A stretch of DNA of 64,000 nt, from positions 34,410,001-34,474,000 of the forward strand of contig OZ260666.1 of the NCBI GenBank assembly GCA_965285935.1, read 5' to 3'. Within the stretch, counting starts at the first letter, position 1, and every line of letters begins with the position of its first letter. Origin of the DNA: Ophelia neglecta. Taxonomy: Eukaryota. This document shows positions 30,001-33,000 of the stretch, in pieces. The position numbers are program-made.

Positions 30001-33000
30001 CACCTCTCTCTTCCCGTGGTGTTTTGTTTCTCGCTTGTCTTTCATGCGTGCAAACAAACATCGGGTGAAAAGAGCGATCACCTTTCTTACAATTACAGAG
30101 AGCATTATGTGTCGGTGGGGAGGCCGGGTTCTATCAGTGGCCCCCTTCGCACCTGACACAAACAATTCTGACTGTTCTATGTCTGTCTTAGCGCTGTAAG
30201 GGGTGCCCGAGTTCACTGCATCTCTGCCTCAGAAAACTTTAAAACTTGCCCCGTATAGATTGAGCCATATGGAAACTAAATCCACATGATTTTCAACATG
30301 TTTATATACTATCTTAAAGGGTTCACCCCAGCATTCTCTTCAATTTGTTATTCTAAATCTTTAGGTTTTATTTGAAATTCTAATTGCATTCATTTGAACA
30401 TGTGTAATCTAGAAATAAACACCATTAGCCTGCTTGGAGAAGGGAAATTAAGTCATTAAATGATGCATATTTAAACGAAAGCAATGCCGTTTTCTTAAGT
30501 TAAAATGTACAAGGTGATCTGTTGCTCAAAATATAGCATCTGTAGTGATATATAAAAAGTGGTTGATAAACATAGACAGTGGTCCTCCTTCTATAAAAGG
30601 CCAATGAAAAGAACATATACTCTTGGTTTATTGACCAGAAATGCCACCAAAATGGAGACATAGAAAACGATGAAAGGTATGTGATGGGGCAGCTTGATCA
30701 AGATTCTAGAGACAAAAGAGTGAGAGAGACCTATGTTGTTAAGTTAAGTCTGACTAATGGAGGATCCCCTTTGCCAAGGAGTACTTAAGGTTTAACTTAA
30801 GGTAACTCTTTCTCTTTATGTTGAGCCTAGCAGTTCTCAGGACAGATAATTCTGCAGGTTAGATTCTCTAATGATGGGAGAGATAATCTCCCTTCCCTTT
30901 GATGGTTAATCCTAGGTGGGTTGACTAAATCACCTGCACTTCTCCTATACTGATTGTTTTAATCAGCCAGGGAAACCTTCAAAGACATGTTCCTGTTGCC
31001 CAAAAAATGGATGTCTTCTTCCACATACAAGTTCCAGGTATAAGTGTCTTACATATGCACTTTTCAACAAGCACTGGTATAGTGCTAAGGTCTTTATGGA
31101 GCACCATCCTGAACAAGTGGGAACAATCTTGGATTGTAATTCTTAACACCATCATCCACTTCCACTATGAGACAGCCTAGAGAGTTGAATGCTAATGCTG
31201 CAGACCTGTAGTTTTTTCCTTTGTAAAGTGGTGTGGAGATAAGTCTGTAATGCATGCTGAGCTAGTGGCCGAGTTTTTACCAGCAATTGAAAGCACCCCA
31301 TGTCATTGGTGGCAGAAGTTTAGTGTAGAGGTCTGCTACAATAGCATTGGGTTGGAATTAATCTAAGACTGGGCTGCAGTCCCAGTCAAAATGGATGCTG
31401 ATTGGCTTTCTAGTCACCTGTAATGTGGAGGAATGGGGGGCAAATGCTCAGAATAGGGAGATGTAAGTAGATTTGCCCTGCAGGGGGCTGAAAGGCCACA
31501 GAACTACAAAGCTGGAATGCAATAAAAGGCTTATCAGTTCATCAATTATGAAAATGCCATTTGCTTGGGCTTGACCCTATTTTGTTGATGTTGGCAGGCT
31601 ATTATTTTGCTGAAAGGCCCTCTTGTTGCAGATTGAGTGGCCAGAGGGTGGGTAGCTTCCTGGTTGACAATGGGGGCCTGTGCCCATATTGTGCCCCGGG
31701 CCACCCCTGGTTTCCTGCCAACCCCTGTCCTAACCCCCACCCAGGACGCACCTCATCAGCCATCTCCTCTGGGCTGTGACTGGCGGCCCCCTGTGGCTGG
31801 CGGCCCTGGCCCTAGACATGTGTTCAGCATGTCACAGGTCACCAGCACAAATACAGGCCAGACGCTGGTTTACACTGAGAGCCCATCATTCTACACACTA
31901 ATTAATAACTATCACAAATAAACCTCCATGGCTTTACTATAGGTCAGGGGTATAAACACTATAGGGGAGTTAAATCAATTAATCAGAAACTAATTAGAGA
32001 AAATGTATGCCTGTGTGATAACATGGAGTCAGAGGAGACTTTATTATTAGGTAATAAAGAAGCCATGGTTAGTTAAGTTCTATTAATCATCAACAGTGTT
32101 TAATGATGCTTACCTCCATTTTTCCTCCCAGTAGACACCTCTTCATCACTCTGTAAATAGAAAAAACAAAAATCTGACATTAGTTTTTAAAGCAGAAAAC
32201 ATATAATGGACTGCTCCCATTTAGATCAATGATGCCATAGAGTAAATGCAATGATAATACATAAACGTGCTCGACACACAGGTAGTCCCCCAGCTTTCAG
32301 ACCTCTTCCCAAGCATACAGCTAAGATTTTATGCATGTTCTCCCCACCTTTATAGAAAACCTGACCGTACTGACATGAGAGGATTATTGTTGATCATATC
32401 TCAGGGTGGTTACCTAATTTAACGAGATGCTGAGCACTGGTATTATGGACATTATTTCATTTATCCCTGTTCTATGATGTCGGTGGAGGTGCAGCATGCT
32501 AATAGGCTAGTTTGATGTATATTTCTCGTGATTTGCACCATATTTCACCCGGTGGGGGTAATCAGTGTTTGCCCCCCTCATCCCCTCTGGACACACTGCC
32601 ACTACTTCAATGGACTAGCCAACTTGGTTTTTTAATTAAATCCCTTCCATTATTACCCCAAACCCCCATTACTCTGATGGTAATTGTAAGCAGCCATGTG
32701 CTCCAAGACCAATTCTTTGTCCCAGCTTACACACATAAAGGCACCCTTAGTCTTTTTGAAAAATTGAAAGCAGACATTTTTTCCCTTTTACCAATATTTC
32801 AATTAAGGGTTGTCAGAACACGAGGGCATTTTTCCGTTACTCACACAACGTGCCGCCTTTCTTTGACTCAAATATCACACGTAGAGGAGGTTACTTTGTG
32901 TCAAGGCCCGGAGACAAGAGACTGTCAAAAAGTCAGAAGCTAATTGACATTTCTGGGGTTACCTACAATGGCTGTCGTGTCGTAGGGCACACGCCCTGCC

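What the first reader, a model, noticed from the sequence alone, without database searches (positions are those of the whole stretch)
32114..32150. Hidden 37-nt frame-switch exon whose skipping creates a stop exactly at the splice junction
Seen: a 37-nt exon with excellent splice signals sits alone between introns of ~11 kb and ~22 kb and is the best bridge I found between a phase-0 donor and a phase-1 acceptor. If skipped, ...TTA TCA joins TG ATC to read TCA TGA, an immediate stop. The product would be a clean 192-aa N-terminal protein with the coiled coil but no HMG box. Established: SoxD proteins homodimerise through the coiled coil, and premature stops upstream of several junctions trigger NMD. 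Inference: this exon could act as an on/off (NMD) or dominant-negative switch. Gene predictors could easily miss it and split the gene.
Basis: partly seen in the sequence, partly recalled or inferred. Interest (0 to 1): 0.65.

Follow-up and report, generated by a model that had tools for sequence, protein, structure and literature searches.

The report
Small real exon in a SoxD gene
A 37-base stretch deep inside a very long intron is almost certainly a genuine small coding exon needed to keep an invertebrate SoxD transcription-factor gene in frame, but nothing shows that it works as a regulatory switch.

Summary
On the minus strand, 32150..32114 is a 37-nt AG...GT unit. It lies 11,002 nt after a phase-0 donor (43153) and 21,988 nt before a phase-1 acceptor (10125) of a spiralian SoxD (Sox5/6/13-type) gene. 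It is the best-scoring splice-site pair of 57,021 in that interval and the best in the whole window on both strands. With it, the eight coding exons sum to 2,097 nt (699 codons). Without it, the junction reads TCA TGA.

Relatives support a small bridging exon here. The phase-0 donor after the leucine zipper recurs in many related ORFs. An annelid-like transcript carries 17 residues (3n+1 nt, inferred) at the same place. Gene models of Lottia and Paralvinella are cut at this point.

The "NMD or dominant-negative switch" idea is untested. The unusually strong splice signals suggest constitutive inclusion. The junction stop is not conserved in the one relative where it can be inferred.

The 192-aa skip product would keep a helical region (residues 140-192) that a model predicts to self-pair. 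No transcript data or related eukaryotic genome could be consulted. Verdict: a real, ordinary exon, of low interest.

The parts
43153..43733 (-). First coding exon (E1). The acceptor cttgcag| lies 5 nt before the ATG at 43728. It encodes 192 aa, MSSKRK...PDDLS, and ends at the phase-0 donor TCA|gtaagt. Predicted helices are at 145-158 and 163-186; the second is the leucine-zipper-like helix.
   Evidence: homologues; structure
32151..43152 (-). Intron of 11,002 nt between E1 and the 37-nt exon. It holds a 22-bp minisatellite at 35802-38248.
32178..32182 (-). CTAAT, a branch-point-like motif about 30 nt upstream of the acceptor, followed by a T-rich tract.
   Evidence: Read; the consensus CTRAY is recalled
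32114..32150 (-). The 37-nt exon (Em). It enters in phase 0 and leaves in phase 1, encodes 12 residues plus the first base of a Val codon, and has 28 purines in 37 bases.
10126..32113 (-). Intron of 21,988 nt between the 37-nt exon and E3.
9623..10125 (-). Exon E3, 503 nt, with a phase-1 acceptor ttttcag|TG and donor CGG|gtatgt. It is Ser/Pro-rich and carries SPKVATSP and the PLNLS (CtBP-type) motif.
8649..8919 (-). Exon E4, 271 nt.
8227..8403 (-). Exon E5, 177 nt, first half of the HMG box.
   Evidence: PF00505, E 2.5e-12
7918..8023 (-). Exon E6, 106 nt, second half of the HMG box.
   Evidence: PF00505, E 6.9e-07
6259..6401 (-). Exon E7, 143 nt ([20 protein letters not shown]...).
5702..5985 (-). 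Exon E8 coding part, 284 nt, ending with TAG at 5704-5702.

Best explanation
The 37-nt stretch is a genuine internal coding exon of a spiralian SoxD (Sox5/6/13-type) gene, and most likely a constitutive one. It joins the N-terminal exon (phase-0 donor, ending just after a short leucine-zipper-like helix) to the Ser/Pro-rich exon that carries the CtBP-type PLNLS motif (phase-1 acceptor). It adds 12 hydrophilic linker residues and the one base that restores the frame.

Because it is so short and sits alone in 33 kb of intron, I infer that it is recognised through four features: a near-perfect pyrimidine tract with CAG, a consensus-like branch motif, a GAG|gtaagc donor, and a purine-rich body. 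Shown: the sequence features, their rank, the frame arithmetic and the homology of the flanking exons. Inferred: actual use in mRNA and constitutive inclusion.
For: 1. The flanking exons belong to one gene. E1 matches the N-termini, and E3-E8 the rest, of SOX-5/6/13-named proteins of bivalves, Lingula and nemerteans. The HMG box lies in E5 and E6.

2. A bridge of 3n+1 nt is required. E1 ends in phase 0 and E3 starts in phase 1. The eight exon lengths, 576+37+503+271+177+106+143+284, sum to 2,097 nt, or 699 codons (coordinates). That gives 698 aa, and homologues are 580-814 aa.

3. The pair ranks 1 of 57,021 AG..GT pairs and 1 of 5,030 frame-compatible ones in the interval. No pair on the control strand reaches it. 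It is also the top pair of the whole window on both strands. Both of its sites score higher than every other site of the gene.

4. Direct in-frame splicing from E1 into E3 is only possible at poor acceptors scoring -8.05 to -4.86. The one exception is an internal acceptor at 10036 (3.96), which would delete the SPKVATSP segment shared with the annelid-like relatives P0006 and P0020.

5. Relatives. Of 86 short E1-type ORFs with a zipper match, 57 read VS or VR (GTnAGn in phase 0) within 25 residues after the zipper. The same pattern occurs in 87 of 546 control windows and 6 of 20 long proteins. An unnamed full-length transcript-derived protein (P0006) has 17 residues between the point where a related E1 ORF (P0028) runs into its intron and the point where the Paralvinella model (P0020) begins. 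The Paralvinella read-through ...FFL|E fits an AG acceptor only in phase 1. The bridging segment there is therefore 52 nt = 3n+1 (inference).

6. The region is single-copy in the window.
Against: - No transcript, junction read or annotated protein of this species could be found. The best identity was 41% and 49%, and there were 2 weak hits for E3.
- The 12-residue peptide shows no significant similarity to the 17-residue segment of the relative: 1,828 of 5,000 shuffles and 1,290 of 5,000 random 17-mers reach the score.
- tblastn with 17 full-length homologues found nothing convincing in the 33-kb interval.
- The scoring matrix is a recalled generic consensus.
- Homology-supported exons of this gene score as low as about 2, e.g. 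E6 at 3.74-1.63. Weaker true exons therefore cannot be excluded.
- Plus-strand decoys reach 14.66 against 15.65.
- Constitutive use is inferred from site strength only.
Confidence: 0.8

Rival explanations
1. The exon is a regulated cassette. Its skipping puts a TGA at the E1/E3 junction. The gene is then either switched off through nonsense-mediated decay or makes a 192-aa zipper-only protein that pairs with the full-length protein and blocks it.
For: - Skipping gives TCA TGA, and the skip frame of E3 holds 7 stops.
- The 192-aa product keeps helices 145-158 and 163-186 and lacks the HMG box.
- Two copies of residues 140-192 scored 0.49 against 0.01 for the best of 3 controls. The runs agree in at least 88% of contacts, and the partner's pLDDT is at least 73. 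The mark was reached by 21 of 30 proteins solved as pairs of one chain and 0 of 23 solved as single chains. On eukaryotes it was reached by 17 of 29, but by only 1 of 7 with no older solved relative. The verdict was 'supports binding; does not show it', and the alignment was not used.
- E1 has no solved relative by sequence.
- Passages read in PMC7683808 and PMC12955089 say SoxD proteins dimerise through the N-terminal coiled coil.
- Several homologues are named as numbered isoforms. The Lingula isoform X2 has an 86-residue linker at this place.
Against: - No evidence of skipping could be consulted.
- Em has the strongest acceptor and donor of the gene, whereas regulated cassettes tend to have weaker sites (recalled).
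- No UGC motif lies between the branch motif and the AG (the motif's role is recalled).
- The junction stop is not conserved in the alvinellid-like relative, where the downstream exon starts (G)|AR (inference).
- The zipper helix is only about 24 residues, and the model pairs it antiparallel.
Confidence: 0.1
2. The 37-nt unit is a chance pseudo-exon. The real bridge is one or more weaker exons elsewhere in the 33 kb, or lies in sequence that is misassembled.
For: Homology-supported exons of this gene have modest scores, so weaker candidates cannot be dismissed by score. Control-strand decoys reach 14.66. There is no peptide conservation. The linker in relatives varies from about 10 to 86 residues.
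Against: The next frame-compatible candidate scores 9.62 against 16.09. My rough extrapolation puts the expected number of decoys this good, with the right length class and an open frame, at under about 0.1. The window has no N.
Confidence: 0.07
3. The exon is real. When it is skipped, the frame is rescued by the internal acceptor at 10036 (ccacctcaccccatcgccag|G, phase 0). This would give an in-frame shorter protein rather than a stop.
For: The acceptor at 10036 scores 3.96, above the 2.63 of the 10125 acceptor, and is in phase 0 and open.
Against: It would remove the SPKVATSP segment shared with the annelid-like relatives P0006 and P0020. The T-rich tract and the first AG at 10127-10126 lie upstream of it. 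No data are available.
Confidence: 0.03

Closest known systems
SoxD genes (vertebrate Sox5, Sox6, Sox13; invertebrate SoxD)
   Same: The HMG box lies near the C-terminus. A PLNLS CtBP-type motif is present (its role comes from a passage in PMC12955089). The N-terminal start MSSKRK and a zipper-like helix are shared with proteins named SOX-5/6/13.
   Different: There is only one short helix pair (145-158, 163-186) in place of the long leucine-zipper plus Q-box coiled coil described for vertebrates (passage in PMC7683808). A Ser/Pro-rich linker follows directly. No vertebrate sequence was compared.
Short constitutive exons recognised through strong splice sites and purine-rich enhancers
   Same: The exon is 37 nt, has the best acceptor and a top-3 donor of the interval, and has 28 purines in 37 bases.
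   Different: The requirement for strong signals in very short exons is recalled and was not tested here.
Frame-shifting cassette exons coupled to NMD (AS-NMD) and truncated dimerisation-only isoforms of transcription factors
   Same: Skipping shifts the frame and gives an early stop upstream of five further junctions. The product would keep a putative pairing helix.
   Different: No evidence of alternative use, strong rather than weak sites, and a junction stop that is not conserved in the one comparable relative.
Neural microexon programme (Srrm4/eMIC-dependent)
   Same: It is a small exon in a long intron of a developmental regulator.
   Different: At 37 nt it is longer than the usual 3-27 nt. 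It is not frame-preserving, and no UGC lies next to the acceptor. These defining features are recalled.

Membership tests
SoxD (Sox5/6/13-type) gene | HMG box of the Sox type located near the C-terminus | tested here: met
   PF00505 on E5 (E 2.5e-12, profile positions 1-35) and E6 (E 6.9e-07, profile positions 38-69). Only E7 and E8 follow.
SoxD (Sox5/6/13-type) gene | Closest relatives are group D Sox proteins over the regions outside the HMG box | tested here: met
   All 17 hits to E1 among long proteins carry HMG-box Pfam domains. Eleven are named by a source: 9 as SOX-5/-6/-13 or SoxD, one as 'transcription factor 7-like 1' (Dreissena) and one 'uncharacterized' (Tubulanus). tblastn maps them to E1 and E3-E7.
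SoxD (Sox5/6/13-type) gene | N-terminal coiled coil (leucine zipper plus Q-box) that mediates dimerisation | tested here: inconclusive
   Helix 163-186 with pLDDT about 90. I174 and L177 are invariant, and L170 and M173 nearly invariant, in 44 sequences. The homodimer model scored 0.49 against a best control of 0.01 (with its caveats). No Q-rich coiled coil was found in any exon or ORF.
SoxD (Sox5/6/13-type) gene | CtBP-binding PLNLS-type motif | tested here: met
   GPLNLSKP in E3, also present in the homologues.
Genuine internal coding exon | AG acceptor with pyrimidine tract, GT donor, branch motif | tested here: met
Genuine internal coding exon | Keeps the reading frame between homology-supported neighbours | tested here: met
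   Enters in phase 0, leaves in phase 1, and is open. The total CDS is 2,097 nt.
Genuine internal coding exon | Present in mRNA (cDNA or junction reads) | not testable with these tools
   No transcript or eukaryotic genome collection was available. No same-species protein turned up.
Genuine internal coding exon | Conserved in related species | tested here: inconclusive
   A 17-residue bridging segment of inferred 3n+1 length sits at the same place in an annelid-like transcript. There is no peptide similarity.
AS-NMD switch exon | Skipping creates a premature stop | tested here: met
AS-NMD switch exon | Both inclusion and skipping occur and are regulated | not testable with these tools
   No expression data.
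AS-NMD switch exon | Sub-optimal splice sites or recognisable regulator motifs (recalled tendency) | tested here: not met
   It has the best acceptor (9.12) and best donor (6.53) of the gene.

The most novel reading that the evidence does not exclude
Spiralian SoxD genes keep a frame-shifting mini-exon right after the dimerisation helix. Regulated skipping of it either shuts the gene off by mRNA decay or releases a zipper-only protein with no HMG box that titrates the full-length factor. This would be a built-in antagonist at an intron position whose phase-0 donor recurs in most of the related ORFs examined (57 of 86).
Probability: 0.1. Interest if true: 0.55.

Novelty: new member of a known kind. 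Interest (0 to 1): 0.2.

Why it matters
For annotation, the exon decides whether this SoxD gene is read as one 698-aa factor or as two broken models. Lottia and Paralvinella models show that such breaks happen at this junction. Biologically it is an ordinary short coding exon. It would only become interesting if skipping were shown to be regulated.

Tried and rejected
- Same-species or close-relative proteins were sought with E1 (long and near lengths), with E3 and with E1 against 1.84 billion representatives. None was closer than about 50%, so annotation or transcripts could not confirm the exon directly.
Isoform differences at this junction stay unchecked.
- tblastn of 17 homologues against the window found only the known exons.
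- A peptide-level comparison of the exon with the relative's bridging segment was not significant.
- Pfam found nothing in E1, E3 or E4, nor in 11 other ORFs of the window on both strands.
- Rfam gave no match in the window.
- E1 had no sequence match in the PDB.
- Literature searches (listings only) turned up no paper on a SoxD mini-exon or on truncated invertebrate SoxD isoforms. Passages were read in PMC7683808 and PMC12955089. For one search only the listing and abstracts were seen.
- Direct in-frame E1-E3 splicing was rejected as the main route because its acceptors are poor.
- The alternative donor at 31752 (399 nt, score 14.02) was rejected because its length is 3n.
- The bacterial/archaeal genome collection was not used because it cannot hold this gene.

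Full report
What the window holds. The window has no N. I do not take it for human, because every related protein found is from invertebrates. On the minus strand lies one gene of the SoxD (Sox5/6/13) type.

Its first coding exon (E1, 43733..43153, ATG at 43728) gives 192 residues starting MSSKRK. Among long proteins, E1 matches the N-termini of 17 proteins at 34-41% identity. They come from bivalves, the brachiopod Lingula and nemerteans, and most are named SOX-5, SOX-6, SOX-13 or SoxD.

tblastn with these proteins maps the rest of the gene to E3 (10125..9623), E4 (8919..8649), E5 (8403..8227), E6 (8023..7918) and E7 (6401..6259). The last exon, E8 (5985..5702, stop TAG), rests on the open frame, the splice junction and its likeness to the C-terminus of the Paralvinella model, judged by eye. 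I read the splice junctions. Pfam finds the HMG box split between E5 and E6. E3 carries the PLNLS motif, which a passage in PMC12955089 describes as the conserved CtBP-binding element of SoxD.

The closest pieces to E3 are a model of the annelid Paralvinella palmiformis (43% identity over 75% of the query) and an unnamed full-length protein, P0006. The animal is therefore a spiralian, perhaps annelid-like, but no species closer than about 50% identity was found.

Only exon lengths were summed.

The observation. The acceptor is tttttgttttttctatttacag|, the exon is 37 nt at 32150..32114, and the donor is GAG|gtaagc. A CTAAT motif sits about 30 nt upstream of the acceptor. The exon is 28/37 purines, open in phase 0 (SDEEVSTGRKNG plus one G), and unique in the window. 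The flanking introns are 11,002 and 21,988 nt. E1 ends TTA TCA|gtaagt in phase 0 and E3 begins |TG ATC in phase 1. A direct join therefore reads TCA TGA, and the skip frame of E3 holds 7 stops.

Is it more than chance? I scored all AG..GT pairs of 4-400 nt in the 33,027-nt interval with a generic splice-site matrix. The matrix was typed from recalled consensus frequencies, so it is approximate.

- Of 57,021 pairs, 5,030 have length 3n+1 and are open in phase 0.
- The 37-nt unit ranks first in both sets, at 16.09 against 9.62 for the next compatible one.
- Its acceptor is the best of the interval and its donor is among the best three.
- No pair on the opposite strand of the interval reaches it.
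- Over the whole window and both strands it is still first (15.65), but the margin is smaller. A minus-strand pair upstream of E1 reaches 14.85, and plus-strand decoys reach 14.66, 14.29, 13.98 and 13.94.

By a rough extrapolation of my own, a decoy this good with the right length class and an open frame is expected fewer than about 0.1 times in the interval. Both sites of the exon score higher than any other site of the gene. The other exons score much lower, so the matrix cannot exclude further, weaker exons.

Is a bridge needed? Yes. The E1 donor is the only good one near the end of the homology. E3 has a T-rich tract and ttttcag at 10125. Acceptors that would allow a direct in-frame join score -8.05 to -4.86. 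The exception is an internal one at 10036 (3.96), which would remove the SPKVATSP segment shared with the annelid-like relatives. With the 37-nt exon, the eight coding exons sum to 2,097 nt, or 699 codons. That gives 698 residues, within the 580-814 of the homologues.

Relatives. A search of 1.84 billion representative proteins with E1 gave 60 hits. Most are 170-270-residue ORFs that start at MSSKRK and end shortly after the zipper. Their tails look like read-through into an intron. Of 86 short ORFs with a zipper match, 57 read VS or VR (GTnAGn in phase 0) within 25 residues after the zipper. The same pattern appears in 87 of 546 control windows and 6 of 20 long proteins. The phase-0 donor after the zipper therefore recurs in many related sequences.

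One lineage allows the whole junction to be inferred.

- The E1-type ORF P0028 leaves homology at ...NNK|VS.
- The Paralvinella model P0020 starts MVLIVSVFYVFFL|ELSNGW, a read-through that fits an AG acceptor only in phase 1.
- The full-length P0006 has 17 residues between these two points.
- That makes 52 nt, again 3n+1.

These three proteins may come from different, related species, so this is an inference. The 17 residues show no significant similarity to the 12 of the window: 1,828 of 5,000 shuffles reach the score. The downstream exon there starts (G)|AR, so a skip would not give a stop at the junction.

Two annotated genomes lose this junction. Lottia gigantea LOTGIDRAFT_163114 is a 224-residue model made of the first coding exon only. 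The Paralvinella model lacks the N-terminus. The Lingula isoform X2 has an 86-residue linker here, which I did not follow up.

The skip product. AlphaFold2 with a 44-sequence alignment gives a mostly disordered E1 (mean pLDDT 61.8, with 75 of 192 residues below 50). It has helices at 77-88, 126-140, 145-158 and 163-186, and the last two have pLDDT near 90. I174 and L177 are invariant, and L170 and M173 nearly so.

Two copies of residues 140-192 scored 0.49, against 0.01 for the best of 3 controls. The runs agree in at least 88% of contacts, and the partner's pLDDT is at least 73. The mark was reached by 21 of 30 proteins solved as pairs of one chain and by 0 of 23 solved as single chains. On eukaryotes it was reached by 17 of 29, but by only 1 of 7 with no older solved relative. 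The tool's verdict is that the model supports binding but does not show it, and the alignment was not used. The least-error contacts (174-177, 170-181, 167-184) suggest an antiparallel pairing; that is my reading. E1 has no solved relative by sequence.

Passages in PMC7683808 and PMC12955089 state that SoxD proteins dimerise through the N-terminal coiled coil. The long Q-rich coiled coil described for vertebrates is not present in any exon or ORF here.

Verdict. The exon is real with a probability of about 0.9, and I give 0.8 to the reading that it is a constitutive, frame-keeping linker exon. The switch idea remains possible (about 0.1), but nothing here speaks for it beyond the arithmetic of the frame. 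Three points speak against it: the very strong splice signals, the absence of a UGC-type motif near the acceptor, and the non-conserved junction stop.

What stayed unchecked: any transcript data, any related eukaryotic genome, the isoforms of the homologues, and the supplements of the papers.

Noticed in passing
window 35802-38248: A minisatellite of a 22-bp unit, about 111 copies at about 91% match, GC about 0.60. It lies inside the 11-kb intron and gives long artefactual ORFs on the minus strand.
   Followed up: partly
window 44880-44768 (minus) and 43733-43735: E1 has an acceptor 5 nt before its ATG, so at least one 5' exon lies upstream. A 113-nt AG..GT unit at 44880..44768 is the second-best splice pair on the minus strand (14.85) and may be that exon.
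   Followed up: partly
window 10036 (minus): An internal phase-0 acceptor inside E3 scores 3.96, higher than the 10125 acceptor. It could give an in-frame product if the 37-nt exon were skipped.
   Followed up: no
window 39129-39098 (minus): A 32-nt AG..GT unit with a strong donor (pair score 12.89) lies in the first intron. Its length is 3n+2, so it is not a bridge by itself.
   Followed up: no
P0041 (Lottia gigantea) and P0020 (Paralvinella palmiformis): The public gene models of SoxD in these two genomes are truncated at the junction after the zipper exon.
   Followed up: partly
P0003 (Lingula anatina isoform X2), residues about 274-359: It has an 86-residue linker between the zipper and the Ser/Pro-rich region, far longer than the 17-56 residues measured the same way in 17 other homologues. 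This hints at extra or alternative exons at this position.
   Followed up: no
E1, alignment A2: Strongly conserved N-terminal motifs outside any Pfam family: MSSKRKNTPTK at the start, and a basic stretch around residues 74-84 (P74, K77, K78, R80, L82, S84 invariant or nearly so) in 44 sequences.
   Followed up: no
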